From UHGV virus genome UHGV-0287696: DNA of 64,000 bases. One strand, 5' to 3'. A program made the position numbers and the translations under genes. Positions within the stretch are counted from its first letter, which is position 1, and each line of letters begins with the position of its first letter. The notes below the pieces were generated by a model, which was not told the origin of the DNA, ran no database searches, and saw nothing but the letters and a program-made list of their open reading frames with translations. The stretch is from a virus. Below, piece after piece: positions 1,372 to 53,943 of this stretch.

Positions 1372-2690
1372 TGTCGTTTGGTCGGTTACAGAACATAGCA
1401 AACGTGCACATTGCACAAGCGGCGGGATTACCGGCCATCGACTACGTACCCCTTATCACGGTCCGTGGGGTGACGATTGACGTTTACAAAACCATGTCGA
1501 TAATCCATGCCAGTAATTTCGCTCAGGATTTAACGACCATCACGCACCTCAGTGTGGTGATTCCACTGAGCCAGCAACGTATTCTTACGTCGTCGGCAGA
1601 AGGGGATTTATCAGTTAAAATCCTGATGCGGACAATGAACAAGAAAACCATTGCGCAACTGAACTACCGAGGAATTGTGGTTAACAACCACGATCCTGAT
1701 ATGGAATCACCTACAATGTTTTTGGGTGAATCTGACCAAAAAGGGTTGGGCGTGGTGACGTTGGAACTGATGGACGAATCGATGTGGTTCCTTCGCTGTC
1801 GGCAGGTAGGAGGGATTTACCACGAAACAGACGGATTAAGTGTCGTTCGTGCATTGCTTGCTGACACATTACCTACTGGGGATGCACCAGAAGGTCAGTT
1901 GGTTGGTGTGGAATACGAGGAAGAAGAACAACAGCCTTATCGTGACATTTTGATTCCCGATTCGCAAAGTTTTCTTTCGGTTTTCGATTTCATTCAGAAC
2001 CGTTACGGTGTGTATAGCCAAGGATTAGGTGTCTTCTTGTATAAACACCGTTGGCATATCTTTCAACCGTGGGATTCTAAGAAATTCTCTACGGCAAAAA
2101 AGAAACTGGTGGTGATTAACCTTCCCAGAGAGAAAGTTGCCTATCTAGATAAAACGTGTCACATTGCAGGTGACGTCATTTATCTGATTTGTGGTGGCGA
2201 TGTTCACACCTTCGAAGACAAAGACGCCCTCGCGTTAAATCAGGGAACGGGTTACCGCGTGGGTTCAATCCGTGCCTTAGATGGACGTGCAAGTTCTTTC
2301 TCTCCAGGCGACGTTTCAGCAACGACGTCAGATTCGTTTGTTTCGGCAGCAGACCCTACACAGTACCCAGGTGGTGTTGTTAATGCACCTATTGATCCAA
2401 ACGAGCACTTCAGCGACACGGATAAGCCTCGTCGTTCTAAGTTGGCTGCCGCCAGAGGGACACTGACCGCAACGACCTGGAACCGTTCAGCGTACGGTTT
2501 ATTGCAGCCGGGTATGGCAGTAAAATATCTGTATGCGAATAATTACGGTGTATACACTCGTTATGGGACGTTGGTTGGTGAAGTTTTCCAAGCTGCCGTT
2601 GACGGTGGTTCGATGGCGTCCCCACAATTTAATACCATTAGTCAATTGACGTTGTGGTTGACTAATGAAAAATTTACAACCGCTACGTAA
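1371..2690 (+). CDS. hypothetical protein (possible virion protein)
   Basis: 439-aa ORF; ATG at 1371 immediately follows the upstream TAA (coupled operon). Confidence 0.55.
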   Translation: MSFGRLQNIANVHIAQAAGLPAIDYVPLITVRGVTIDVYKTMSIIHASNFAQDLTTITHLSVVIPLSQQRILTSSAEGDLSVKILMRTMNKKTIAQLNYRGIVVNNHDPDMESPTMFLGESDQKGLGVVTLELMDESMWFLRCRQVGGIYHETDGLSVVRALLADTLPTGDAPEGQLVGVEYEEEEQQPYRDILIPDSQSFLSVFDFIQNRYGVYSQGLGVFLYKHRWHIFQPWDSKKFSTAKKKLVVINLPREKVAYLDKTCHIAGDVIYLICGGDVHTFEDKDALALNQGTGYRVGSIRALDGRASSFSPGDVSATTSDSFVSAADPTQYPGGVVNAPIDPNEHFSDTDKPRRSKLAAARGTLTATTWNRSAYGLLQPGMAVKYLYANNYGVYTRYGTLVGEVFQAAVDGGSMASPQFNTISQLTLWLTNEKFTTAT

Positions 2691-2722
2691 ATTATGTCGT
2701 CCGTAACCTAAAGGATTTGTTA

Positions 2723-3523
2723 ATGAGTAATCTACTTACTTTCAGAATGTCTGGCCAAACGTTAATTCAAATCGACAAGTTCGAAGAAGAGAATTTTTCG
2801 AAACCGTCGAAGTTGTTAGAACGTTGCCTTAATGTTATTCCTGGTGGCGAACAACGCCAGTTGGACTACATCATGGCGTCCAGTGCTGACAAAACGATTT
2901 CTGTTATCTATACCGTAGACGGTGTACAGAATTGTCGCTTATTACCAATCGAAGAAAAAGGGACGTTAGGTCATTTGTTGTTCCTGCACGCGATCACAAC
3001 CGCCGTGGTGTCTGGTGCTTTAGAAGCGCAATACGGCTTTGCTTATTGTTACTTCTATGCTCAGAAATTAGCTGCAGCGGTTATTCCAGGGCAACAAGAA
3101 ACCTATCCTCAGTATATTGAACGTATTCTCCCCTCTCACTTTAGTGAGTCGGAAGACTACGACTTCAATGCGTTTCGTTTTACCGTGGTGGGTGAAGCCC
3201 GCGATCCTGAATACACAACAGCGGTTCGTGCGGTGGTGCGCTATTCTGTTATTTCTACAGACAGCGGTACATCAAATAACTTTAATGAAGTGTATCCGGT
3301 CTTGCAGTTAGGTCCTTATGTGACTTTCAACAGCTATGTGCCATTCAGTTGTCAGCTTGTGGGTCCGCAGGATAACGATTCTATTCTCCCTGTTGCGGAA
3401 GAAAAGTCATTGTTTATTCGCGAATCTGTAGAAGCTATTAGCGATAAGCGCTTTATGATTTCTTCGAAGACGGGCATTAACGATCCTGAAATCGCTGTAA
3501 TGGATAAGATGCAAGGTCTGTAA
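2723..3523 (+). CDS. hypothetical protein
   Basis: ORF with ATG at 2723 preceded by AAAGGA (2710-2715); track start 2717 is a TTG; followed by intrinsic terminator. Confidence 0.55.
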   Translation: MSNLLTFRMSGQTLIQIDKFEEENFSKPSKLLERCLNVIPGGEQRQLDYIMASSADKTISVIYTVDGVQNCRLLPIEEKGTLGHLLFLHAITTAVVSGALEAQYGFAYCYFYAQKLAAAVIPGQQETYPQYIERILPSHFSESEDYDFNAFRFTVVGEARDPEYTTAVRAVVRYSVISTDSGTSNNFNEVYPVLQLGPYVTFNSYVPFSCQLVGPQDNDSILPVAEEKSLFIRESVEAISDKRFMISSKTGINDPEIAVMDKMQGL

Positions 3524-3526
3524 AAA

Positions 3527-3570
3527 CTTCCCGTTACCTCTATGGGTAACGGGAATACCTTTTATTTATT
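3527..3570 (+). terminator. intrinsic terminator
   Basis: Hairpin cttcccgttacc/ggtaacgggaa followed by ttttatttatt. Confidence 0.6.
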
Positions 3571-3684
3571 CCTAAACGACACGCAGAAGTCATTTAACCG
3601 TTAAGACGACTAATTACCCTTTAAAAAGAAAATCGCGTCAGAATGCGTTTTAGAGCGTTCTAGAGGGTATATGGATTCAAAAAG

Positions 3685-3713
3685 ATTTCAGATATATATT
3701 ACCTAGGTGAGAG
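3685..3713 (+). promoter_or_regulatory. conserved early-type promoter motif (TCAGATATATATTACCTAGGTGAGAG)
   Basis: One of five near-identical copies in the window, each 40-70 bp upstream of an RBS+ATG; TATATTAC core is what I recall as the phiKZ early promoter consensus. Confidence 0.55.
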
Positions 3714-3758
3714 TTTACGTAATACTCATTTATCGAATACCTAATTAGGAGTTATATC

Positions 3759-3902
3759 ATGATTTCTGTAAAACACAAAAAAGCTATCTTCGGTGTTGTT
3801 ATCGCTGTTGTTCTGGGTTGCCTGTATCTGGACATCGACAAAGGCTACGACACTTGCATCGACAACGGTAATTCCGTTGCACAGTGCACTGGTCGTGGTT
3901 AA
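3759..3902 (+). CDS. small membrane protein (47 aa), likely highly expressed early gene
   Basis: ATG at 3759 with RBS TAGGAG; MISVKHKKAIFGVVIAVVLGCLYLDIDKGYDTCIDNGNSVAQCTGRG; optimal-codon rich; below the 60-aa track cutoff; flanked by promoter motif and terminator. Confidence 0.5.
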   Translation: MISVKHKKAIFGVVIAVVLGCLYLDIDKGYDTCIDNGNSVAQCTGRG

Positions 3903-3907
3903 TGTAT

Positions 3908-3940
3908 AAGGCACCTTCGGGTGCCCTTAATTTTTTTATT
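3908..3940 (+). terminator. intrinsic terminator
   Basis: ggcacc-ttcg-ggtgcc hairpin followed by ttaattttttt. Confidence 0.65.
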
Positions 3941-3956
3941 AATTGGAGCATAAAAG

Positions 3957-4772
3957 ATGATTACCATTAAAGATTATTTTCCGCGTGGACTGAGCAATGA
4001 AAACTTCGTTCCAACTGAAGACATTGCCATCGTAACAGAGTCTAGTGATAAGTCTTTTAAACTCTACTTGAGTACGGCAGCAGGAAAATCCACTCTTATC
4101 CTTCGCGAACCTGAGGTGATAAGCATCTGCTCGTTTGGGGGCGGTGTAGAAGGAACGATTAATTGGTTGAAATCCAGAATGCATCGTTTGCTTATCGTGA
4201 ACACCGATCCTGTGATTCGTTTACAGCAATTGAAATCGTTGAATGAAGTTATCGTCGGATTATTGGAACATGAAACGTTTGGTAATGTTGCGATTGCGGA
4301 AGAGATTAAATCTGTAGAACTAATCGAGTGGAGTGATATCGAATACGAACGTGCTGCGTTATTCGCAATGTACGGTGACGATAATCCTGTTGTGTTTGCA
4401 CAAACATTAGATAACGTTACAGTAACAGCGCGCGTATTGTTTGGCTTACAGCGTGTTGAGTTTGAACTGAAACACGTTTATGTAAGTAATGCTCCAGAGA
4501 TGGTGGAAACGTTGACTCGTGCGTTCGCTTACCCGTTAGACGGAGAATGGGAACAGCAGATTAATGAAGCGTTAGGTGCGATGCTGTTCTTAGCAGGCAC
4601 ACTAAGGAAAGAAGAGAAATTAAAAGGTCGTGTCTATCCAGAATACGATTTTGTTTGTGAAGAATGTGGAGCACAGTATCAAATACGTGTTCCTTTAACC
4701 GGCCTGACAATCCCGAAAGCCAACGTGCAATGTAAGGAATGTGGCCATGTTCAATACGTAGCGACTAAATAA
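3957..4772 (+). CDS. hypothetical protein with C-terminal zinc-ribbon (CxxC...CxxC)
   Basis: 271-aa ORF, RBS GGAGCA upstream; C-terminus FVCEECGAQ...CKECGH. Confidence 0.55.
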   Translation: MITIKDYFPRGLSNENFVPTEDIAIVTESSDKSFKLYLSTAAGKSTLILREPEVISICSFGGGVEGTINWLKSRMHRLLIVNTDPVIRLQQLKSLNEVIVGLLEHETFGNVAIAEEIKSVELIEWSDIEYERAALFAMYGDDNPVVFAQTLDNVTVTARVLFGLQRVEFELKHVYVSNAPEMVETLTRAFAYPLDGEWEQQINEALGAMLFLAGTLRKEEKLKGRVYPEYDFVCEECGAQYQIRVPLTGLTIPKANVQCKECGHVQYVATK

Positions 4773-4776
4773 AAGC

Positions 4777-4822
4777 AACCCCTAATCCTTTTCGGGATTA
4801 GGGGTACACTTTATTTATTTTC
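4777..4822 (+). terminator. intrinsic terminator
   Basis: acccctaatcc-ttttc-gggattaggggt hairpin plus T-rich tract. Confidence 0.6.
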
Positions 4823-4848
4823 GCAAATTCAACATAGGGGATAAGTTC

Positions 4849-4977
4849 ATGAAACATGAACTGTTGTTTCGACGGTTAAACGAGTTGTCCGTAAAACAGC
4901 TCGAATTTCAACGAAGGGTTAGTGAAATAGCGCAACCAACGTTAACACAGCCCAAGAAACACCCAGTCGGTAGTTGA
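4849..4977 (+). CDS. small protein, putative degenerate member 0 of tandem paralog array
   Basis: 42-aa ORF with RBS AGGGG; KQLEFQRRVSEI resembles KQIQFNQRMDEY of the ORF at 5860; rare codons present. Confidence 0.3.
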   Translation: MKHELLFRRLNELSVKQLEFQRRVSEIAQPTLTQPKKHPVGS

Positions 4978-5026
4978 GAGGGGGTAACAACCTAAAGGGG
5001 GAATGCGCCAACACTCCCCATAGGCG

Positions 5027-5082
5027 CTTTATCTTTTCGAAAGAGAAGTTAAAGCAGTAGGGACTGCCTATACAGTCCCTAC
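5027..5082 (+). promoter_or_regulatory. conserved palindromic leader element plus hairpin (array unit 1)
   Basis: cttttcgaaagagaagttaaagca followed by hairpin gtagggactg...cagtccctac; same architecture at 5345 and 5742. Confidence 0.45.
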
Positions 5083-5138
5083 TTGTCGCTATTACCGGTA
5101 CGTAATAGCTTAATCCCCAACTCGTGTGAGGTTTTAAC

Positions 5139-5309
5139 ATGACTAACAACAATACACGTATCTTTACTTCTATCTCAAACAGCTATGCAGAACAAGCGAG
5201 GTTTAATGAACGACTAAGAGAGGTTCAACAACTCGGATTAAATAAAAGGCTTAAAGCCTCTAACAATCCTCGAGTACAGATCTTCACCGAAAGGAGAAGT
5301 AACTACTAA
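5139..5309 (+). CDS. small basic protein, tandem paralog 1 (56 aa)
   Basis: RBS GAGGT; MTNNNTRIFTSISNSYAEQARFNERLREVQQLGLNKRLKASNNPRVQIFTERRSNY; shares QLG(L/M)(N/D)KRLK...QIFTE(R/K)RS with paralog 2. Confidence 0.45.
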   Translation: MTNNNTRIFTSISNSYAEQARFNERLREVQQLGLNKRLKASNNPRVQIFTERRSNY

Positions 5310-5316
5310 ATAAAAT

Positions 5317-5341
5317 AAAGGGGTGCTGTCACACCCCTTTT
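5317..5341 (+). terminator. hairpin (weak terminator) after paralog 1
   Basis: aaaggggtgctgtcacacccctttt. Confidence 0.4.
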
Positions 5342-5344
5342 CTT

Positions 5345-5403
5345 AGCTTTAACTTTTCGAAAAGAGAAGTTAAAGCAGGGTACGCTGGTGCTACAGCGTA
5401 CCC
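5345..5403 (+). promoter_or_regulatory. conserved palindromic leader element plus hairpin (array unit 2)
   Basis: agctttaacttttcgaaaagagaagttaaagca (arms ctttaactt / aagttaaag) followed by hairpin gggtacgctg...cagcgtaccc. Confidence 0.45.
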
Positions 5404-5465
5404 TTTACAGCACCACCACGTTTCCGTAGTGGATTTCTTTAATCACCCTACAAAGAGGGCTTACC

Positions 5466-5639
5466 ATGAACAATGGTTACTACTTTACTGACAAAATGCT
5501 TGCAGAACAGAGTGCAGCAAAGACCAATTTACAGCAACGTATCTACAAGTATAGTCAGCTCGGCATGGATAAACGGTTAAAACCGTCTACCAACCGTTTC
5601 ACGCAGATATTCACCGAAAAGAGGAGTGAACACTACTAA
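5466..5639 (+). CDS. small basic protein, tandem paralog 2 (57 aa)
   Basis: RBS AGAGGG; MNNGYYFTDKMLAEQSAAKTNLQQRIYKYSQLGMDKRLKPSTNRFTQIFTEKRSEHY; differences from paralog 1 are partly synonymous. Confidence 0.45.
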   Translation: MNNGYYFTDKMLAEQSAAKTNLQQRIYKYSQLGMDKRLKPSTNRFTQIFTEKRSEHY

Positions 5640-5712
5640 CAAATAAAGAGGAGGCGTGTCAGCGCCTCCCCTCCTCGTACAGTAACCTGCCGAGATGGTG
5701 GTCGTAGGTATA

Positions 5713-5741
5713 AAAAAGGGTGCTTCACCACCCCTTTTCTT
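5713..5741 (+). terminator. hairpin (weak terminator) after paralog 2
   Basis: aaaaagggtgcttcaccaccccttttc. Confidence 0.4.
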
Positions 5742-5799
5742 AGCTTTAACTTTTCCGAAGAGAAGTTAAAGCAGCAGAGACTGTTCCGCCAGTCTCTGC
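5742..5799 (+). promoter_or_regulatory. conserved palindromic leader element plus hairpin (array unit 3)
   Basis: agctttaacttttccgaagagaagttaaagca followed by hairpin gcagagactg...cagtctctgc. Confidence 0.45.
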
Positions 5800-5830
5800 T
5801 GTACGGTGTCAACACATAAAGTTGTTGACG

Positions 5831-5840
5831 TTTTTACAAC
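5831..5840 (+). promoter_or_regulatory. TTTTTACAAC motif (candidate second promoter class)
   Basis: Exact 10-mer also at 32079 and 37613, each 20-45 bp upstream of a start codon. Confidence 0.25.
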
Positions 5841-5859
5841 ATTACGAAAGGTAATGAAA

Positions 5860-6021
5860 ATGAACGAATATCAAATACAGATGTTCAATACCGCGATGCG
5901 AAATCGTGAGAAACAAATTCAGTTTAACCAACGCATGGACGAATATGTTCGTCTCGGCCTCGTTGCGGCACCGAAAACGGTTAACAACCACAATGTTCAC
6001 CAACCACCTGTAAGGAGATAA
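5860..6021 (+). CDS. small basic protein, tandem paralog 3 (53 aa)
   Basis: ATG at 5860 after GAAAGG; MNEYQIQMFNTAMRNREKQIQFNQRMDEYVRLGLVAAPKTVNNHNVHQPPVRR; track start 5806 is an upstream GTG. Confidence 0.4.
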   Translation: MNEYQIQMFNTAMRNREKQIQFNQRMDEYVRLGLVAAPKTVNNHNVHQPPVRR

Positions 6022-6163
6022 GTTACTAACTAATAAAGGGGGTGTTGCTACCACCCCCTGCTTAGTTCGGTAGTTGTTTTCCATTCATAATTAATAGTCT
6101 TCTGTTTTTTTTTGCTTTCCGAGACGCATAAGGGGTTATAGGGGGAGCCGAAGCTCCCCAGAC

Positions 6164-7726
6164 TCAAAAGAGTTCGTCACCCATGCCGCCGGTAAATACG
6201 TTAATCGACGAGGCTGTTACAGTTTCTTCTTTATCACAATCCCATGGCAAAATGCCAACATCACGGAAAGGTATTACAGTATAATGATAAGCTTCTTTGG
6301 TATCAATAATTGTACGGTGTTTACCGCGTTGTACTTCTAAATAGCTGTGTCCGCTGACGACACGTTTGTTAAAATACATCTCACCGTCAGCTTCGTTGTC
6401 TAAGCTAGAGCAGTTGTCGTAAAGACCACGACCAGGTAAGCTCTTACAGAAACTTGCTGGGTCGAGTGCTTTTAATTTTTTGCCTTCTGGTGAGATTTGG
6501 TGTGGTGCTAAGAGGAAACCACGATTACGTACCACTTGGATGTTTCGCGCGATACGATAAATTTCTTTAATGTCACTACCCGCAATACCGTTACCGTGCC
6601 CTGCTTTGCTGATAGTACCGAAATAGTCTCCGCGTATTCCAGCTACATGATAACCTCGACGTTTTAAATCTAAAATCAAATCATTCAAATAGTGAATTTT
6701 AAAATCGGAGTTTGTGTGTTTTTGGAAAATATACTCCCAACCGTTTGCCCGCATTTTACTACAGAGGTAATCTGACATTTGTGCATTGTGTAGCGCTTTT
6801 TCTTCGTCAGTTGCCGTTTCAGGTGCAACCATTACCGGAGCTGTACCTTCAAAGTGTCCGTAAAGTGCTTGATACGCGTAAGCCAAGTTAACATCTAATT
6901 CGTTTTCTAAACTTAAATCCAGAATAACCGGTTGTAAGTCACCTTTAACATTTGCCATCACCTTTTCTGGGGTGTTGAATACAGGAATGCTAATAGAGAG
7001 CAATAAACTGAATAATGACTTACAGTTAAAAGGAAGAGCAGGCATTAGCCAGAGTTCTTCGGTGATCCCTTTGTTACAACCGAGCATTTGGTTAATTGCT
7101 TTCCAGCCCGTACGTAACCCGTTCCCTGCTGCTTTCTTACTGATAGAGTCGAATACATGTACGAAGGGTGCTTTATTGTCAGTAATCAATTCCCCTACCA
7201 GAGAAGGAATCTTATTATGAGAGCGTTCACTGAACGTGGATAAGGTATCCTTAAGGTCGTTGAGCGCCGTTTGTAAATCAACACGCGTTTCAGTGCCGTT
7301 CAGTGCGCCTAACGTACGACCCAATTTTTGTTTCAGTTGTACGCCTTGAATAGCTTGACGTAACTGAAAGTAGTATTGTGCTACTTGGCGATTAAGATGC
7401 TCGATGCGTGCTTCTGGTTCTTCTGGAATATCATCTTCCAGGAATTTGGTAATCGTATCGTATAGAGGACGTATTTGCGTAGTGGCCAGTTTCAAACGTT
7501 TCATGACGTTTGTGTGGTCGTAAGGCATACCGCCGTCTATGATGGATGTGATGATATCCTTGATTTCGACGAGGGCGGCACGTTCGTCACCTTCTTCTGC
7601 GTAATCAGGAAGCTTAGCCTCTAACAGCACTTTTCTTATGATGTCGTGGTCCTTTTCAGGATCGGTCAGAAGACTTTCAGCGTATAATGTGGCTAAGGCG
7701 GTTATCAACATCATTTTGTTATTCAT
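6164..7726 (-). CDS. hypothetical protein (520 aa)
   Basis: Long - strand ORF; RBS AAGGA upstream of ATG at 7726; no motif recognised. Confidence 0.6.
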   Translation of the reverse strand: MNNKMMLITALATLYAESLLTDPEKDHDIIRKVLLEAKLPDYAEEGDERAALVEIKDIITSIIDGGMPYDHTNVMKRLKLATTQIRPLYDTITKFLEDDIPEEPEARIEHLNRQVAQYYFQLRQAIQGVQLKQKLGRTLGALNGTETRVDLQTALNDLKDTLSTFSERSHNKIPSLVGELITDNKAPFVHVFDSISKKAAGNGLRTGWKAINQMLGCNKGITEELWLMPALPFNCKSLFSLLLSISIPVFNTPEKVMANVKGDLQPVILDLSLENELDVNLAYAYQALYGHFEGTAPVMVAPETATDEEKALHNAQMSDYLCSKMRANGWEYIFQKHTNSDFKIHYLNDLILDLKRRGYHVAGIRGDYFGTISKAGHGNGIAGSDIKEIYRIARNIQVVRNRGFLLAPHQISPEGKKLKALDPASFCKSLPGRGLYDNCSSLDNEADGEMYFNKRVVSGHSYLEVQRGKHRTIIDTKEAYHYTVIPFRDVGILPWDCDKEETVTASSINVFTGGMGDELF

Positions 7727-8276: not shown

Positions 8277-10571
8277 ATGAAAGATACCCGAATCTCTAAT
8301 CTGGAGAAACTCGTACAAGCTGGTAACTCGCTGGTACAAAGCGTCATTAGTAACAACAGTGCTGGCGAAATGTGGAACACCATCGTTGCTGGTGAGTCTG
8401 TACGTAGCAACACGAAAGTTTTTGGTACCCTGCGTGACGATGCTGCACAGCACTACGCAAACGCGTTTGCTGGCGGTAAGAAAATGTCCCACGCTGCGGA
8501 AGTTGCTTCTGCAATGATTCTGGGTGCTGCTGGCCACGGTATGGACCTGCAAGAAAAAGTAGCGCAAGAATACGCTAAGCCAGAATTCCATAGCCGTTTT
8601 AACCTGGACGTTGCGATTCCTGGTTCCCAAGCTGGTAACGGCGACTGGGGCAAAGAGCGTATGGTTGTTGCTCAGGAATACTACACCAACAAAGATTACG
8701 ACAAAAACCTGGGTCTGACCTGGACGCTGAACGTACGTGCTCTGGAAACTCAGTCTCGTTTCGCTGAGACTCTGTTCCCGACCATCACCGTTGACACCAA
8801 CGATGTTGGTATTACCGTACGTACCAAAGTGACCACCGTTTCTCGTGGTGTCATGCACGCGTTACTGACCAAAGACGTTGTTGAAGATCATCGTCGTAAC
8901 CTGCACGAAGCGCTGACCGACCACACCGTTCTCCAGGACGAAGCGATCAACATCGTTCCTTACGTAATGGAAACCGGTGAAAACGCTGAATACTTCGTAA
9001 GCGAAGAACTGGTACCGAACGAATCTGTTCGTCTGGGCCGCGTACCTCCGTACCCGACTAACTACCTGAGCTTTGCTAAAGACACTCTGAACCTGTTCCA
9101 GCTGTCTGCGCATCCGGGTATCGTTCAGGAAGGTTACGACGAAACTGATGAAATCGCACCGGGTTGTGCTCTGGGCAGCCTGCTGATTTCCGTACGTAAA
9201 CCGACCGAAGAAGCGAAAGCAGGTAAATTCATCAAACTGCACGTTCGTGACATGCAGTTCGCAACCTTCCAGCGTCCTGCTGAAGGTGATGGCCGTGAGC
9301 TGGTACTGCAATTCCGTCGTACTGCGTTCTCTCTGAATGCGAAAACCACCGACTGGAAAGGCGAAGCTATTCCGGCACTGAAATCACTGGAACAGAACTC
9401 CTACACCCTGCGTTATGTGATCACCATCAACATGTCTCTGTTCACTACCGGTCAGTTCGGTGGTAAAGTTGACATCGCTGGTCACAAACTGGAAATCGAA
9501 GGTCTGTACGACGCTACTGGTAACAAAGTTGATACCAAATCTGGTACCGGCAAAGTTATCCTGGACGGTCTGAAACTTGAACTGATGGGCTGGCGCTTCG
9601 ATGGTACTCGTACCAACGAAAACCGTCGTACCCAGGGTCTGCTGCTTGACCCAATCTGGGAACAAGAAAACTACAAACTGCAATACGGTTCTCCGATCCT
9701 GACCAAGTCTCCGGTTGGCGTTGAATACGACGATACCGAACGTCTGGACGACCTGATTTCCGCAGTTAACATCCGTAACGAACAGCTGGCTATCACTCAG
9801 ACGCTGTCTTACACCGAAGCGGTACGTAACGCTGCTGCAAGCATGATCACTCCGTGGGACAAACCGGCCATTCGTGGTCTGGGCCGTCACTGGGTTGCTC
9901 CGTGGTTCAAAGAGTCTGACTACAACGTTGATGAAGTTGTACAGTCCCTGGATACCAAAGATGCACTGATCAACGCTCGTCAGGGCCTGGTACAGCGTAT
10001 CGGTAATCAGGTAACTCAGGCTATCCAGGAATCTCGCTTCATTCCTGCGCTGCGTCTGTACACTGCCGATCCGGACATTCTGCCGAAAGTTGTTATTGCA
10101 ACTGACGAACCGACTGCATCTATGCTGCTGCTGGTACAGGGCGACCAACGTCTGCTGGGCGATCGCTACGAATACGAAGTGATCACCACCAACGATGACC
10201 GCTGGCGTATCTACAACGCAGCTGACGGTTCCTGGACTCGTCGTCTGCAATGGTTCCTGAAAGTTCCGACTGCGGACGATGGTTCCTACAACGTGCTGAA
10301 CTGGGGTAACCACTTCTGGTCTCCGATCATGGTTACCAACATCAACATTCAGCGTAACGGTTCTACCTCTAAAGAGCTGGCCGTACAGCCGCGTAACGCG
10401 CACATCTGTCACTGCCCGATCACCGGTCTGATCTGGGTTAAAGGCATCACCAAACTGGTTGAAGAAAAACTGGCTTACAATGTTTCTGTTGAACAGAACG
10501 GTCAGAAACAAACCGAAGGTGGTGTAGCAGGTAACGTTGCTGGCGAAGGCAAAGCTGCTGCTGGTAAGTAA
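8277..10571 (+). CDS. major virion structural protein, most likely major capsid protein (tail sheath not excluded)
   Basis: 764-aa ORF with strongly optimised codons (ctg, cgt, ggt, aaa), strong downstream terminator; size matches the ~750-aa capsid proteins of phiKZ-like phages; no search run. Confidence 0.5.
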   Translation: MKDTRISNLEKLVQAGNSLVQSVISNNSAGEMWNTIVAGESVRSNTKVFGTLRDDAAQHYANAFAGGKKMSHAAEVASAMILGAAGHGMDLQEKVAQEYAKPEFHSRFNLDVAIPGSQAGNGDWGKERMVVAQEYYTNKDYDKNLGLTWTLNVRALETQSRFAETLFPTITVDTNDVGITVRTKVTTVSRGVMHALLTKDVVEDHRRNLHEALTDHTVLQDEAINIVPYVMETGENAEYFVSEELVPNESVRLGRVPPYPTNYLSFAKDTLNLFQLSAHPGIVQEGYDETDEIAPGCALGSLLISVRKPTEEAKAGKFIKLHVRDMQFATFQRPAEGDGRELVLQFRRTAFSLNAKTTDWKGEAIPALKSLEQNSYTLRYVITINMSLFTTGQFGGKVDIAGHKLEIEGLYDATGNKVDTKSGTGKVILDGLKLELMGWRFDGTRTNENRRTQGLLLDPIWEQENYKLQYGSPILTKSPVGVEYDDTERLDDLISAVNIRNEQLAITQTLSYTEAVRNAAASMITPWDKPAIRGLGRHWVAPWFKESDYNVDEVVQSLDTKDALINARQGLVQRIGNQVTQAIQESRFIPALRLYTADPDILPKVVIATDEPTASMLLLVQGDQRLLGDRYEYEVITTNDDRWRIYNAADGSWTRRLQWFLKVPTADDGSYNVLNWGNHFWSPIMVTNINIQRNGSTSKELAVQPRNAHICHCPITGLIWVKGITKLVEEKLAYNVSVEQNGQKQTEGGVAGNVAGEGKAAAGK

Positions 10572-10584
10572 TCTTGCTTAAAAA

Positions 10585-10630
10585 GAGTCTAAGCCCTTCG
10601 GGGCTTAGACCTTTTATTTTTTTTTTCTTT
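10585..10630 (+). terminator. intrinsic terminator
   Basis: gtctaagccc-ttcg-gggcttagac hairpin followed by a ~19-nt T-rich tract. Confidence 0.75.
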
Positions 10631-10754
10631 CTATTATTTTTTGGATAGATATTATTAAAGGGAGACGGCCAGTTGGTTTTAAAGGAGTATGTATGGAAAA
10701 AATACAGTTTAAACTAAAGATATGTGTCATCATTAAAATTTAGCTTGGGTTCCC

Positions 10755-11765
10755 ATGAAACGTCTTGATATTGATGTGGTGCCCAGTATCTCTGAACGCT
10801 CGTTATGTCAAACGTCTGGATTGAGGAAACTTGTTACGTTTGAAAATAACACTGGCGTGCCTATCCACGTCACTGAAACCAGTGGCGGTAGCTTTATTTT
10901 AAATGCTTCGAAAAACCCCGCTGATGAGCATGGGGTTATCGTTTACGTGACGTATCAATCATACGGAAGATGCGCGAATCTCAATGGGTTTGCTGAACTG
11001 ATGCCGGGAAAACAGTTTTCTCGCTTTTGCGACCAATTGAAAGAAAAAGGGGAGGTAACGTTAGAGTATGCAGTAAACGACGTTGGTGCGTTGCTGCGAG
11101 GAGATTTGGTTGTACTAAAGCAGTTAGGCTTTGCTTTCTCAACAACACCGATACGCTTAGATAGTAAACCCCCAACTATGCGCCCTGGAGGTGAGCGCAC
11201 TGAATTTACATTGGGTGTTGTTGTTGTGCAACGCTACGACGAGCCTGACAATTATCGGTGGCTACGTTTCTACGGTACGAAAATGAAAATCGAACCAATA
11301 ACGTCACGCTATTATGAACCGGGCGTTTACATGATAATAGGAGGTGGAACGAGGGTGGAAGGGAGTCGAATGATTCATTTTGAATTTGACGACATTACTT
11401 CACCGTTTAGATTATTTAAGGATGAGGCAGCGGCGGACGCGTTTCGATGGCAAGAAGCAGTTCCCGGTCTCTTTGAGATTAAGCAACGTTTAGAGGAGCA
11501 GTACAAAGAAAAATTAGAAAGCTTGGATTCGGCAAAAGACAAGTTAGAATTGGAACACAAGAAACAACTACAGAGCATGGCTTTAGAAAAGGAGCGATTG
11601 ACTTTAGCATTCAAGCAACAGGAATTGGAAGCGAAGTCACGGGCTGAGGCGCGTAAAGAATTCTACGAGACGCGTTCTTACATTCGTAAGGACGGCTCAG
11701 ACCTATTTAAATCTGTCCCTGCGTATTTGGCGGCGGGTGTCGCTTTTATAGGGATGCTAACGTAA
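10755..11765 (+). CDS. hypothetical protein with C-terminal coiled-coil and hydrophobic tail
   Basis: 336-aa ORF; C-terminal heptad-like KEKLESLDSAKDKLELEHKKQLQSMALEKERL and terminal AYLAAGVAFIGML. Confidence 0.5.
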   Translation: MKRLDIDVVPSISERSLCQTSGLRKLVTFENNTGVPIHVTETSGGSFILNASKNPADEHGVIVYVTYQSYGRCANLNGFAELMPGKQFSRFCDQLKEKGEVTLEYAVNDVGALLRGDLVVLKQLGFAFSTTPIRLDSKPPTMRPGGERTEFTLGVVVVQRYDEPDNYRWLRFYGTKMKIEPITSRYYEPGVYMIIGGGTRVEGSRMIHFEFDDITSPFRLFKDEAAADAFRWQEAVPGLFEIKQRLEEQYKEKLESLDSAKDKLELEHKKQLQSMALEKERLTLAFKQQELEAKSRAEARKEFYETRSYIRKDGSDLFKSVPAYLAAGVAFIGMLT

Positions 11766-30909: not shown

Positions 30910-30937
30910 TCAGATATATTTTACTTAGGTGAGAGTT
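30909..30937 (+). promoter_or_regulatory. conserved early-type promoter motif (variant CTCAGATATATTTTACTTAGGTGAGAG)
   Basis: Copy 2 of the motif, immediately after a terminator and ~50 bp upstream of the HTH gene. Confidence 0.5.
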
Positions 30938-30984
30938 ACAACTAACTCTTTACACCGACTTGTTAACCTAAAGGAGTATTTACA

Positions 30985-50069: not shown

Positions 50070-50098
50070 CTCAGATATATATTACCTAGAGGAGAGCG
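50070..50098 (+). promoter_or_regulatory. conserved early-type promoter motif (CTCAGATATATATTACCTAGAGGAGAG)
   Basis: Copy 4, immediately after a terminator and 46 bp upstream of ATG 50144. Confidence 0.55.
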
Positions 50099-50143
50099 AA
50101 ATTTACGTTCACTCCATTAGTTATAGCCGAAAAGGAGGATTAG

Positions 50144-53873: not shown

Positions 53874-53912
53874 TCAGATATATATTACTTAGGTGAGAGT
53901 ACAAAAGCTCTC
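53874..53912 (+). promoter_or_regulatory. conserved early-type promoter motif with downstream palindrome (GTGAGAGTACAAAAGCTCTCAC)
   Basis: TTCAGATATATATTACTTAGGTGAGAG; copy 5, 44 bp upstream of ATG 53944. Confidence 0.55.
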
Positions 53913-53943
53913 ACTTAACTAAACCATTTTAGGAGAATATACC

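What the first reader, a model, noticed from the sequence alone, without database searches (positions are those of the whole stretch)
3759..3902. Unlisted 47-aa membrane protein ORF directly behind an early promoter
Between promoter copy 1 and a strong terminator lies ATG..TAA 3759..3902 with RBS TAGGAG, encoding MISVKHKKAIFGVVIAVVLGCLYLDIDKGYDTCIDNGNSVAQCTGRG, with one TM helix, three Cys and optimal codons. It is below the 60-aa track threshold. A strongly expressed immediate-early membrane peptide could act in host takeover or superinfection immunity.
Basis: seen in the sequence. Interest (0 to 1): 0.5.

Follow-up and report, generated by a model that had tools for sequence, protein, structure and literature searches.

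The report
Conserved early jumbo-phage membrane micropeptide
The 47-codon ORF is a real, conserved and apparently very highly expressed early gene of an SPN3US-like jumbo phage; it encodes a tiny membrane-anchored peptide with a probably disulfide-clasped loop facing the periplasm, and relatives already annotate it as a hypothetical protein of unknown function.

Summary
ATG 3759..TAA 3902 (+) encodes the stated 47-aa peptide, with a TAGGAG Shine-Dalgarno 7 nt upstream. It follows a perfect copy of a 26-nt motif that has 4 copies in the window against 0 expected. A UUCG-loop terminator follows the gene.

A 47-codon ORF alone means nothing, but four results show this one is a gene:
- Homologs occur in 68 phage records, usually annotated "hypothetical protein" (SPN3US_0066, Machina gp80).
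- It matches PHROG 8574 end to end.
- It keeps its syntenic position in relatives.
- The C-terminal 20 codons are under purifying selection (pN 0.11-0.21, pS 0.5-0.8).

43 of 46 codons are enterobacterial optimal codons, more than in any of 72 long ORFs in the window, including the major head gene. Homologs share this bias.

The motif contains the published phiKZ-group early-promoter core TATATTAC.

The peptide has a basic N-terminus, a 16-20-residue hydrophobic anchor and an almost invariant tail, DY.xC..NGNS...CTGRG. Cys21 is not conserved and does not fit the strict lipobox. The Cys-loop also occurs as tandem repeats in secreted bacterial proteins.

Function is untested. My best guess, at low confidence, is early envelope protection or superinfection exclusion. 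This is a new member of a known but uncharacterised family.

The parts
3528..3555 (+). Intrinsic terminator-like hairpin that closes the preceding gene (2717..3523) and insulates the early unit from upstream transcription
   Evidence: 12-bp stem with 6 GC pairs, followed by a T-rich tail
3688..3713 (+). Early-promoter motif TCAGATATATATTACCTAGGTGAGAG (core TATATATTAC at 3693-3702). The TSS is predicted at about 3707-3712; this is inferred, not mapped.
   Evidence: Four copies in the window against 0 expected. The same motif heads the syntenic gene block in 10 of 11 relatives. The core TATATTAC is the published phiKZ early promoter, and the motif resembles the 201phi2-1 consensus (PMC7058600 Table 2). 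The AT-rich early motif lies about 10 bp upstream of the TSS (PMC7598289, PMC11512511).
3704..3732 (+). Weak predicted hairpin at the 5' end of the transcript (GTGAGAG...ACTCAT). It is stronger in the other promoter copies and in relatives.
   Evidence: RNAfold gives -6.6 kcal/mol here, against -10.9 to -17.2 at copies 30915 and 53879. Relatives keep a hairpin with different sequence.
3746..3751 (+). Shine-Dalgarno TAGGAG, 7 nt before the ATG
   Evidence: Read directly from the sequence. All homologs carry an AGGA/GAGG-type SD at the same distance.
3759..3902 (+). CDS for the 47-aa micropeptide MISVKHKKAIFGVVIAVVLGCLYLDIDKGYDTCIDNGNSVAQCTGRG (stop codon included)
   Evidence: PHROG 8574 matches 1-47/47, E 3e-23. 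tblastn finds it in 68 phage records. Purifying selection. Fop 0.935.
3759..3782 (+). Residues 1-8: basic N-terminal segment (K5, H6, K7, K8), predicted cytoplasmic
   Evidence: The net N-terminal charge is +3 to +4 in all homologs, against -2 to +2 for the tail. The cytoplasmic placement follows from the positive-inside rule and is an inference.
3783..3830 (+). Residues 9-24: hydrophobic membrane anchor (AIFGVVIAVVLGCLYL). It contains the non-conserved C21 (3819-3821) in a VLG|C context.
   Evidence: Uncharged stretch of 16 residues here and 15-22 in homologs. AF2 predicts a helix over residues 4-35 with pLDDT 82-94. A lipobox is present by PS51257 in 14 of 45 sequences and by the strict consensus in 0 of 45.
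3840..3899 (+). Residues 28-47: conserved Cys-loop KGYDTC33IDNGNSVAQC43TGRG. It is predicted to be a periplasmic helix-turn-helix clasped by a C33-C43 disulfide.
   Evidence: C33, G37, S39 and C43 are invariant; Y30 and N36 are at least 90% conserved across 37 sequences. pN is 0.11-0.21 against pS 0.5-0.84. AF2 places a turn at residues 36-39 and a short helix at 40-44. The same unit is tandemly repeated in signal-peptide-bearing proteins.
3910..3937 (+). Intrinsic terminator: GGCACC-UUCG-GGUGCC followed by CTTAATTTTTTT. It makes the peptide gene a roughly 230-nt monocistronic unit, or an attenuator for the downstream genes.
   Evidence: A structurally equivalent terminator follows the homolog in Machina and pEa_SNUABM_43.

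Best explanation
The ORF is a genuine, conserved, very highly expressed immediate-early gene of an SPN3US-like (Chimalliviridae-type) jumbo phage.

How I think it works:
1. The injected virion RNA polymerase starts at the consensus early promoter (3688-3713).
2. It makes a short transcript that ends at the terminator (3910-3937).
3. The strong SD and near-perfect codon usage drive abundant synthesis of the 47-aa peptide.
4. The peptide inserts into the inner membrane with its basic N-terminus in the cytoplasm and a single hydrophobic anchor (N-in/C-out).
5. This exposes a 20-residue C-terminal module (Y30, C33, G37, S39, C43, TGRG-COOH) at the periplasmic face.
6. There the module folds as a helix-turn-helix that is probably clasped by a C33-C43 disulfide.

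The almost invariant hairpin most likely binds, stoichiometrically, a conserved periplasm-exposed partner right after infection. My preferred guess is that it protects the envelope of the infected cell against further phage attack. That would be superinfection exclusion or protection from lysis-from-without, the job done by the T4 early proteins Imm and Sp.

What is shown: gene reality, conservation, synteny, expression signals and sequence architecture.
What is inferred: the timing, the TSS, the topology and the disulfide.
What rests on analogy only: the target and the biological role.
For: Gene reality:
- 68 phage records carry a homolog, usually annotated as a CDS.
- PHROG 8574 matches over the full length, E 3e-23.
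- The gene keeps its position between the homolog of 2717..3523 and the minus-strand DnaB helicase.
- Over the C-terminal 20 codons, pN is 0.11-0.21 and pS is 0.5-0.84.

Early, high expression:
- The motif has 4 copies against 0 expected.
- It is present at the head of the same block in 10 of 11 relatives and sits directly before the gene in SPN3US, at -69.
- It contains the published phiKZ-type early-promoter core.
- Fop is 0.935, above all 72 long ORFs in the window. Every homolog exceeds its long neighbours.
- A terminator lies right after the gene.

Topology and extracytoplasmic loop:
- The N-terminus carries +3 to +4 charge, followed by a 15-22-residue uncharged stretch.
- AF2 reaches pLDDT 86, with a helix at 4-35, a turn at NGNS and a helix at 40-44.
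- The Cys pair is invariant.
- The same unit is repeated 4-5 times in proteins with N-terminal signal peptides.

Conserved target:
- The loop is nearly identical in phages of Salmonella, E. coli, Erwinia and Proteus.
Against:
- Promoter class and TSS are inferred from motif similarity, not mapped in this phage group.
- No sequence or fold similarity to Imm, Sp, Llp, Cor or any characterised exclusion protein was found: Pfam gave 0 hits at E<=1, and Foldseek found only the family's own member.
- Coinfection is known to occur in nucleus-forming phages (my own knowledge), so strict exclusion is not expected.
- In about a third of members a Cys in the anchor passes the permissive lipobox rule. If these are processed, the location could be the outer membrane, which complicates the idea of one shared inner-membrane-proximal target.
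Confidence: 0.35

Rival explanations
1. Host-takeover factor acting on a conserved host envelope machine. The anchored hairpin would bind, for example, a late divisome component to block septation while the phage nucleus occupies mid-cell, as the bitopic early protein gp56 of SPO1 does. Alternatively it would bind the periplasmic domain of a sensor kinase, as the 47-aa host peptide MgrB does with PhoQ.
For: - It has the same size and architecture as MgrB (47 aa, N-in anchor, two essential periplasmic Cys; my own knowledge).
- Early, abundant expression is predicted.
- The loop is conserved across phages of different enterobacterial genera, which fits a conserved host target.
Against: - There is no sequence relationship to MgrB or any known division inhibitor: Pfam gave 0 hits at E<=1.
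- Remote relatives of the module occur in very different, non-enterobacterial contexts, so the module is not tied to one host machine.
- No phenotype data exist.
Confidence: 0.2
2. Small lipoprotein. The N-terminal 20 residues would be a signal peptide cut by signal peptidase II at VLG|C21. The result would be a 27-residue lipopeptide, sorted to the outer membrane because residue +2 is Leu. It would act like the phage lipoproteins Llp (T5) or Cor by masking a receptor, or as an o-spanin.
For: - The window peptide passes PROSITE PS51257, as do 14 of 45 family sequences.
- UniRef labels the Kwan homolog 'Lipoprotein'.
- The uncharged stretch here is only 16 residues.
- There is a weak PHROG hit to an Rz-like spanin, E 0.032, restricted to the hydrophobic segment.
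Against: - C21 is absent from most homologs, including SPN3US, Machina, phiEaH2 and CR5.
- 0 of 45 sequences fit the strict lipobox [LVI][ASTVI][GAS]C; the Leu sits at -2, not -3.
- The hydrophobic stretch has the same length with or without the Cys (17.8 and 18.1 residues).
- For a spanin there is no adjacent or embedded i-spanin gene, the gene has an early-type promoter and the peptide is not Pro-rich.
- Receptor masking is hard to reconcile with a loop that is invariant across phages of different hosts.
Confidence: 0.15
3. Membrane-active or membrane-organising peptide. The stapled hairpin would resemble the thionin helix-turn-helix and act on the lipid bilayer itself. It might seal or remodel the inner membrane at the entry site, or populate the membrane of the early phage infection (EPI) vesicle, whose lumen is topologically periplasmic.
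For: - hhalign aligns the loop in register with the thionin C16-C26 hairpin: probability 76-84%, P about 1e-5.
- All three repeat proteins give near-threshold Pfam Thionin hits of 20.2-23.4 bits against a cutoff of 23.6.
- Crambin and viscotoxin B appear among the weak Foldseek hits.
- Chimalliviridae make an inner-membrane-derived EPI vesicle during early transcription (PMC13282480).
Against: - The window peptide itself does not hit Pfam Thionin.
- The Cys-loop profile finds no thionin in the PDB at E<=10.
- The other four to six thionin cysteines are absent.
- The hypothesis was suggested by a scan of about 25,000 families, so the pairwise P-value overstates significance.
- Nothing links this family to EPI vesicles.
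Confidence: 0.1
4. Not a gene: a chance ORF in an untranslated leader, or a region whose function is an RNA.
For: Short ORFs are abundant by chance: 58 ORFs of at least 20 aa overlap 2000-6000.
Against: - Start, stop, length and frame are conserved in 68 records.
- There is strong purifying selection at the amino-acid level while synonymous sites are near saturation.
- The SD is conserved.
- Codon bias is extreme.
- No Rfam family matches the region.
- The transcript is not unusually structured, z -1.75.
Confidence: 0.02

Closest known systems
PHROG 8574 / SPN3US_0066 (AEP83899.1; RefSeq ACQ60_gp200), Machina gp80, phiEaH2 gp253, Asesino gp84, Wellington gp81
   Same: These are orthologs. They are 45-47 aa, 45-60% identical overall, and share the same basic N-terminus, hydrophobic anchor and DY.xC..NGNS...CTGRG tail. 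They occupy the same genomic block and the same early-motif-headed operon, and they share the elevated codon optimality.
   Different: - In the window and in SPN3US the gene is the first gene behind the motif. In the other relatives it is the second to fourth gene.
- In the window and in Machina-type phages it is followed by a terminator. In SPN3US-type phages it is translationally coupled (TAATG) to gp67, which the window lacks.
- The window variant carries C21 and an acidic juxtamembrane stretch (LDIDK).
- The function of the whole family is unknown.
T4 Imm and Sp (spackle); T5 Llp: early phage envelope proteins that block superinfection
   Same: They are small, made immediately after infection, and exported or membrane-anchored, and they act in the envelope. 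Llp also carries a disulfide (my own knowledge). This is the functional model I favour.
   Different: No sequence or fold similarity was detected. Those proteins are 60-100 aa. No exclusion phenotype is known for SPN3US-like phages.
MgrB (47-aa enterobacterial inner-membrane peptide, PhoQ inhibitor)
   Same: It has identical length and layout: a basic N-terminus in the cytoplasm, one anchor and a short periplasmic tail with two functionally essential Cys about 10 residues apart (my own knowledge).
   Different: There is no detectable homology: the Pfam scan gave no hit at E<=1. The loop sequences are unrelated. The similarity is an analogy of design only.
Thionins (Pfam PF00321; crambin, purothionins, viscotoxins)
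   Same: There is a local match of the stapled helix-turn-helix, [FY]-N-x-C-R-x-x-G-x5-C, with identical Cys spacing and Gly position.
   Different: The peptide is not a member. The window peptide gives no Pfam hit, and the other thionin cysteines and the beta-strands are missing. Thionins are soluble secreted plant toxins, whereas this peptide is membrane-tethered. The resemblance may be convergent.
phiKZ-group early (virion RNA polymerase) promoters
   Same: The core TATATTAC lies within an AT-rich, highly conserved motif that stands in front of operons of small genes of unknown function. The extended motif resembles the 201phi2-1 and OBP consensus, TTTxARR..TATATTAC...GTG.
   Different: The TSS and the polymerase dependence have not been mapped for SPN3US-like phages in anything I could read. 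The downstream GTGAGAG plus complementary hairpin is a feature of this clade.

Membership tests
PHROG 8574 (SPN3US gp66-like micropeptides) | Full-length match to the family profile | tested here: met
   hmmscan matches residues 1-47 to profile positions 1-47 of 47, E 3.2e-23. The profile search recovers 36 clusters of 45-51 aa.
PHROG 8574 (SPN3US gp66-like micropeptides) | Conserved C-terminal motif Y..C...G.S...C(TGRG) and an N-terminal basic segment plus hydrophobic anchor | tested here: met
   C33, G37, S39 and C43 are invariant and Y30 and N36 are at least 90% conserved in 37 sequences.
PHROG 8574 (SPN3US gp66-like micropeptides) | Syntenic position in the early block between the structural-gene cluster and the minus-strand DnaB-like helicase | tested here: met
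phiKZ-type early (vRNAP) promoter | Conserved AT-rich core TATATTAC in a repeated motif upstream of operons | tested here: met
   Four copies against 0 expected. The motif is conserved in relatives. The published consensus is quoted in PMC7058600.
phiKZ-type early (vRNAP) promoter | Transcription start about 10 bp downstream of the motif, early after infection, rifampicin-resistant | not testable with these tools
   This needs dRNA-seq, ONT-cappable-seq or primer extension. It is only inferred here from PMC7598289 and PMC11512511.
Bacterial lipoprotein (signal peptidase II substrate) | Lipobox by the permissive PROSITE PS51257 rule | tested here: met
   The window peptide passes with Cys at position 21. 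14 of 45 family sequences pass.
Bacterial lipoprotein (signal peptidase II substrate) | Canonical lipobox [LVI][ASTVI][GAS]C, and conservation of the lipidated Cys among orthologs | tested here: not met
   0 of 45 sequences fit the strict pattern. C21 is replaced by V, S, T or A in most orthologs.
Bacterial lipoprotein (signal peptidase II substrate) | Actual lipidation and cleavage | not testable with these tools
   This needs globomycin treatment, palmitate labelling or mass spectrometry.
o-spanin (Rz1-like) | Outer-membrane lipoprotein gene adjacent to or embedded in an i-spanin gene within a late lysis cassette | tested here: not met
   There is no i-spanin-like neighbour. The gene stands alone between an early-type promoter and a terminator. 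The PHROG Rz-like hit is only E 0.032 and lies over the hydrophobic segment.
Thionin (PF00321) | Score above the Pfam gathering threshold | tested here: not met
   The window peptide gives no hit at E<=1. Repeat-protein relatives reach 20.2-23.4 bits against a cutoff of 23.6. The Cys-loop profile finds no thionin in the PDB.
Thionin (PF00321) | Six to eight Cys framework (C3, C4, C16, C26, C32, C40) | tested here: not met
   Only the equivalents of C16 and C26 exist.
Thionin (PF00321) | Helix-turn-helix with a C16-C26 staple in the same register | tested here: inconclusive
   hhalign gives probability 76-84% over 19-20 columns. The AF2 secondary structure is compatible.
MgrB family | Sequence match to the curated family | tested here: not met
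   The Pfam scan of the peptide returned 0 families at E<=1. The resemblance is architectural only.
Known superinfection-exclusion proteins (T4 Imm/Sp, T5 Llp, Cor) | Sequence or fold similarity | tested here: not met
   Pfam, NCBIfam, PDB sequence search, Foldseek PDB and BFVD all gave nothing beyond the peptide's own family.
Known superinfection-exclusion proteins (T4 Imm/Sp, T5 Llp, Cor) | Exclusion phenotype on expression | not testable with these tools
   This needs plating, adsorption and DNA-entry assays.

The most novel reading that the evidence does not exclude
The peptide would be the founding phage example of a membrane-tethered, disulfide-stapled, thionin-like alpha-hairpin module. 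The same module is used in tandem arrays by secreted bacterial proteins. The phage would make it in very large amounts within minutes of injection to act on the membrane itself. It might seal or remodel the inner membrane at the entry site, or line the lumen of the early phage infection vesicle that shelters the genome of nucleus-forming jumbo phages. On this reading it does not simply bind a protein receptor.
Probability: 0.08. Interest if true: 0.8.

Novelty: new member of a known kind. Interest (0 to 1): 0.4.

Why it matters
Small genes of unknown function dominate the early regions of jumbo phages. The 2026 review PMC13282480 lists their roles as an open question.

This gene stands out among them for four reasons:
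- It is conserved across SPN3US-, Machina-, Erskine-, Wellington- and Derbicus-type phages.
- It sits at or near the head of an early operon.
- Its codon optimisation is the strongest in the window, above the major head gene.
- It is exported.

Together these point to an abundant, envelope-directed function in the first minutes of infection.

It is also a cheap target to test. The peptide has 47 residues, one tryptic reporter peptide and two Cys to mutate. A result could reveal how nucleus-forming phages protect or remodel the envelope early.

The separate observation that its Cys-loop is a portable extracytoplasmic mini-module may help annotate other micropeptides.

If nothing comes of this, it remains one more correctly called hypothetical gene.

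Tried and rejected
1. Lipoprotein idea. VLG|C21 looked like a lipobox. I rejected it as the family's defining feature because the Cys is not conserved and no member fits the strict consensus. I keep it as a minor rival for this phage.
2. Spanin. The PHROG hit has E 0.032 and covers only the anchor, and there is no partner gene.
3. RNA element. Rfam finds nothing in the region and the transcript fold is unremarkable.
4. Solved-structure and fold searches. PDB sequence searches with the family and Cys-loop profiles, and Foldseek against PDB and BFVD, returned only the family's own member.
5. Thionin membership. Tested and not met; only a local resemblance remains.
6. Partner genes gp67 and gp68 of SPN3US. 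They are absent from the window, so they are not obligatory partners.
7. Word-indexed single-sequence protein search. It found only one near-identical cluster. The profile and exhaustive searches were needed.
8. Literature. I found nothing on SPN3US gp66, nothing on small early membrane proteins, and nothing on superinfection exclusion in these phages. The SPN3US infection-proteomics paper (PMC6384053) is not held.
9. Link to peptidoglycan enzymes. Two remote members lie next to a Tlde1/YkuD-like gene and an M23/ChW endolysin-like gene. With only two weak members (E about 1e-4), this is too thin to use.
10. P0039 (293 aa) in the exhaustive search is a low-complexity repeat and was discarded.
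Full report
**1. The observation**

- TAGGAG lies at 3746-3751, 7 nt before the ATG.
- Upstream, a 12-bp terminator hairpin (3528-3555) closes the preceding 268-aa gene.
- Downstream, GGCACC-UUCG-GGUGCC (3910-3925) is followed by CTTAATTTTTTT. Its energy is -11.6 kcal/mol, z -2.6 against shuffles.
- The promoter copy is real as a repeated element. TATATATTACCTAGGTGAGAG occurs four times on the + strand (3693, 30915, 50076, 53879, with at most 2 mismatches) against 0.00 expected. Each copy precedes an SD+ATG by about 45-55 nt.

A 47-codon ORF is not significant in itself, because 58 ORFs of at least 20 aa overlap 2000-6000. Everything therefore depends on comparative evidence.

**2. It is a gene**

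The window has no close DNA relative among 50,697 phage records. The only stretch that megablast finds is the roughly 45-nt promoter motif.

At the protein level the flanking 268-aa gene is 55-64% identical to genes of SPN3US (Seoulvirus) and of Erwinia Erskinevirus and Machinavirus jumbo phages. The window also carries their DnaB-like helicase on the minus strand and their major head protein.

tblastn with the peptide finds 68 records, 54 of them over at least 80% of its length. In most, the match is annotated as a CDS 'hypothetical protein'. Examples are SPN3US_0066, Machina gp80, phiEaH2 gp253, Asesino gp84, Wellington gp81 and ChrisDB gp82. The Cronobacter phage CR5 homolog is present but unannotated (L010 2519..2656).

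Further evidence:
- The peptide matches PHROG 8574 from end to end, E 3e-23, function unknown. It matches no Pfam or NCBIfam family.
- The gene always lies in the same block, after the homolog of 2717..3523 and before the minus-strand helicase.
- Nei-Gojobori counts give pN 0.11-0.21 and pS 0.5-0.84 for the C-terminal 20 codons against the SPN3US- and Erwinia-type homologs; the distant CR5 pair is higher at pN 0.42. That is strong purifying selection with near-saturated synonymous sites.
- Rfam finds nothing here.
- The identical peptide is also called as a gene on two metagenome contigs.

**3. Expression signals**

The motif TCAGATATATATTACCTAGGTGAGAG heads the same gene block in 10 of 11 relatives examined. 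In SPN3US it lies 69 nt before the gene, as in the window (66 nt). In the other relatives one to three further small genes intervene.

Its core is the published phiKZ early-promoter element TATATTAC. The extended motif resembles the 201phi2-1 and OBP consensus (PMC7058600 Table 2). Reviews and transcript mapping place such AT-rich motifs about 10 bp upstream of the start sites of early genes, which the virion RNA polymerase transcribes (PMC7598289, PMC11512511). By that rule the TSS should be near 3707-3712. This is an inference, and I found no mapping for SPN3US-like phages.

- 43 of 46 scorable codons belong to the enterobacterial optimal set (Fop 0.935).
- The 72 ORFs of at least 100 aa average 0.50, with a maximum of 0.84 for the major head gene.
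- Only 0.27% of 47-codon chunks of other genes reach the peptide's value.
- Every homolog examined also exceeds all long ORFs in its own locus, 0.70-0.89 against maxima of 0.61-0.71.

The terminator right after the gene is shared with Machina-type phages. It makes the gene a roughly 230-nt unit that can be expressed in molar excess over the downstream genes.

**4. The protein**

An alignment of 37 distinct family members (45-51 aa) shows three parts:
- a basic N-terminus, net +3 to +4;
- a 15-22-residue uncharged stretch;
- an almost invariant tail, [DG]Y[ND]xC..NG[NH]S...CTGRG, which ends at the C-terminus in nearly all members.

C33, G37, S39 and C43 are invariant.

AlphaFold2 with this alignment gives pLDDT 86, with a helix at 4-35, a turn at NGNS (36-39) and a short helix at 40-44. 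This puts the two Cys on either side of a tight turn. Charge distribution (positive-inside rule) puts the N-terminus in the cytoplasm and the Cys-loop in the periplasm, where a disulfide can form. Both the topology and the disulfide are inferred.

The third Cys (C21) first looked like a lipobox (VLG|C), and UniRef even calls the Kwan homolog 'Lipoprotein'. Three results argue against that:
- C21 is replaced by V, S, T or A in most orthologs.
- 14 of 45 sequences pass the permissive PROSITE rule, but none fits [LVI][ASTVI][GAS]C.
- The hydrophobic stretch is equally long with and without the Cys.

I therefore favour a signal-anchor and keep lipidation as a minor rival for this phage.

**5. The Cys-loop as a module**

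An exhaustive HMM search of 1.84 billion representatives found only 19 hits. Besides the family itself, there are further 44-52-aa anchor-plus-loop peptides. There are also three longer proteins with N-terminal signal peptides and 4-5 tandem copies of just the loop (P0041, P0046, P0047). For example, P0041 has AYNTCIGNGNSASQC where the window has GYDTCIDNGNSVAQC. This supports an extracytoplasmic, self-contained mini-fold.

All three repeat proteins score just under the Pfam Thionin threshold, and crambin and viscotoxin B appeared among the weak Foldseek hits. I tested the thionin idea in four ways:
- The window peptide does not hit Pfam Thionin.
- The loop profile finds no thionin in the PDB.
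- The remaining thionin cysteines are absent.

My conclusion is a local, possibly convergent resemblance, not membership.

Genomic contexts of the remote members are mixed. One looks like a bacterial chromosome. Two lie in runs of small phage-like genes. One overlaps the end of a Tlde1/YkuD-like gene. One follows an M23/ChW endolysin-like gene. This is too thin to build on.

**6. Mechanism**

Shown:
- a conserved gene;
- a consensus early-type motif, an SD and a terminator;
- extreme codon optimisation;
- the anchor-plus-loop architecture.

Inferred:
- transcription by the virion polymerase within minutes of infection;
- abundant synthesis;
- N-in/C-out insertion;
- a C33-C43 disulfide.

By analogy only:
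- the role.

The loop is nearly identical in phages of Salmonella, E. coli, Erwinia and Proteus. The partner should therefore be either a conserved phage component or a conserved host envelope machine, and not a strain-specific receptor.

I rank early envelope protection or superinfection exclusion first. In that model the peptide blocks the entry apparatus or the wall-degrading activity of later-arriving particles, as T4 Imm and Sp do. Next come a host-takeover role (division block or sensor modulation, like SPO1 gp56 or MgrB), a lipoprotein variant, and a membrane or EPI-vesicle role. None of these can be separated with the tools at hand.

My confidence differs by claim:
- that it is a real gene: about 0.97;
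- that it is early and abundant: about 0.75;
- that the loop is periplasmic and disulfide-bonded: about 0.7;
- that its role is exclusion or envelope protection: about 0.25-0.3.

**7. Novelty and verdict**

The ORF is 'unlisted' only because of a length threshold. It is a new ortholog of an already annotated but uncharacterised family. The added value here is the evidence for exceptional expression, the definition of the invariant periplasmic hairpin, and its recurrence as a repeat module elsewhere.

Interest is moderate. It is a good, cheap experimental target in a group of phages whose early small genes are an acknowledged open question. Nothing here is categorically new.

Noticed in passing
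window 3704-3732, 30918-30946, 50086-50110, 53889-53918; also L001-L011 downstream of each motif: Directly after the early-promoter core, the conserved GTGAGAG is followed by its complement. This gives a hairpin at the predicted 5' end of the early transcripts (-6.6 to -17.2 kcal/mol). Relatives keep the hairpin with different sequences (SPN3US GATAG/CTATC; STsAS 12 bp), which amounts to compensatory changes. It could stabilise the mRNA or form part of promoter recognition.
   Followed up: partly
window 4800-6100: A cluster of small paralogous ORFs (4849..4977, 5139..5309, 5466..5639, 5806..6021) shares a ..Q.RFN.R..E...LG..KRLK.. pattern. They are separated by direct repeats (D2 at 5026/5743, D3 at 5317/5714) and by many hairpins, 21 terminator-like sites against 3.7 expected in 3000-6500. 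SPN3US gp71 and gp72 (48 aa each) look like their counterparts.
   Followed up: no
window 3957-4772: The 271-aa protein downstream of the terminator has a C-terminal double CxxC zinc-ribbon (weak Pfam Zn_ribbon hits). It is distantly related (23-27% identity) to phiEaH2 gp257 and Asesino gp88. It has no promoter motif of its own, so it probably depends on read-through of the 3910-3937 terminator.
   Followed up: partly
L010 (Cronobacter phage CR5, JX094500.1) 2519-2656; Salmonella phage JN03 MT799840.1 67812-67952: Homologs of the peptide are present but not annotated in these public records. Four SPFM records (SPFM9, 10, 15, 20) show only partial matches (about 40% coverage), which may reflect sequence errors or truncated copies.
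   Followed up: partly
P0041, P0046, P0047 (loci L021, L022, L015): These are secreted proteins with 4-5 tandem copies of the Y-x2-C-x3-G-x-S-x3-C loop. One lies in a bacterial chromosome-like context (adh_short, Fer2 neighbours). They score just below the Pfam Thionin threshold. I found no curated family that describes this repeat.
   Followed up: partly
L016 574-1112; L020 2706-4144: Two remote anchor-plus-loop peptides lie next to peptidoglycan-acting enzymes. P0045 overlaps the 3' end of a 127-aa Tlde1/YkuD-like gene. P0043 lies 310 bp after an M23-peptidase/ChW endolysin-like gene. They could be immunity or lysis-regulator peptides, or the adjacency could be coincidence.
   Followed up: partly
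window 8277-10571: The major head protein gene has the second-highest codon optimality in the window (Fop 0.84). It serves as an internal benchmark for 'highly expressed', and the 47-aa gene surpasses it.
   Followed up: yes
window 10629-10666: A degenerate fifth relative of the early motif (TTGGATAGATATTATTAAAGGGAGAC) was picked up by the repeat finder. It lies just before the ORF at 10755. It may be a weaker or different-class promoter.
   Followed up: no
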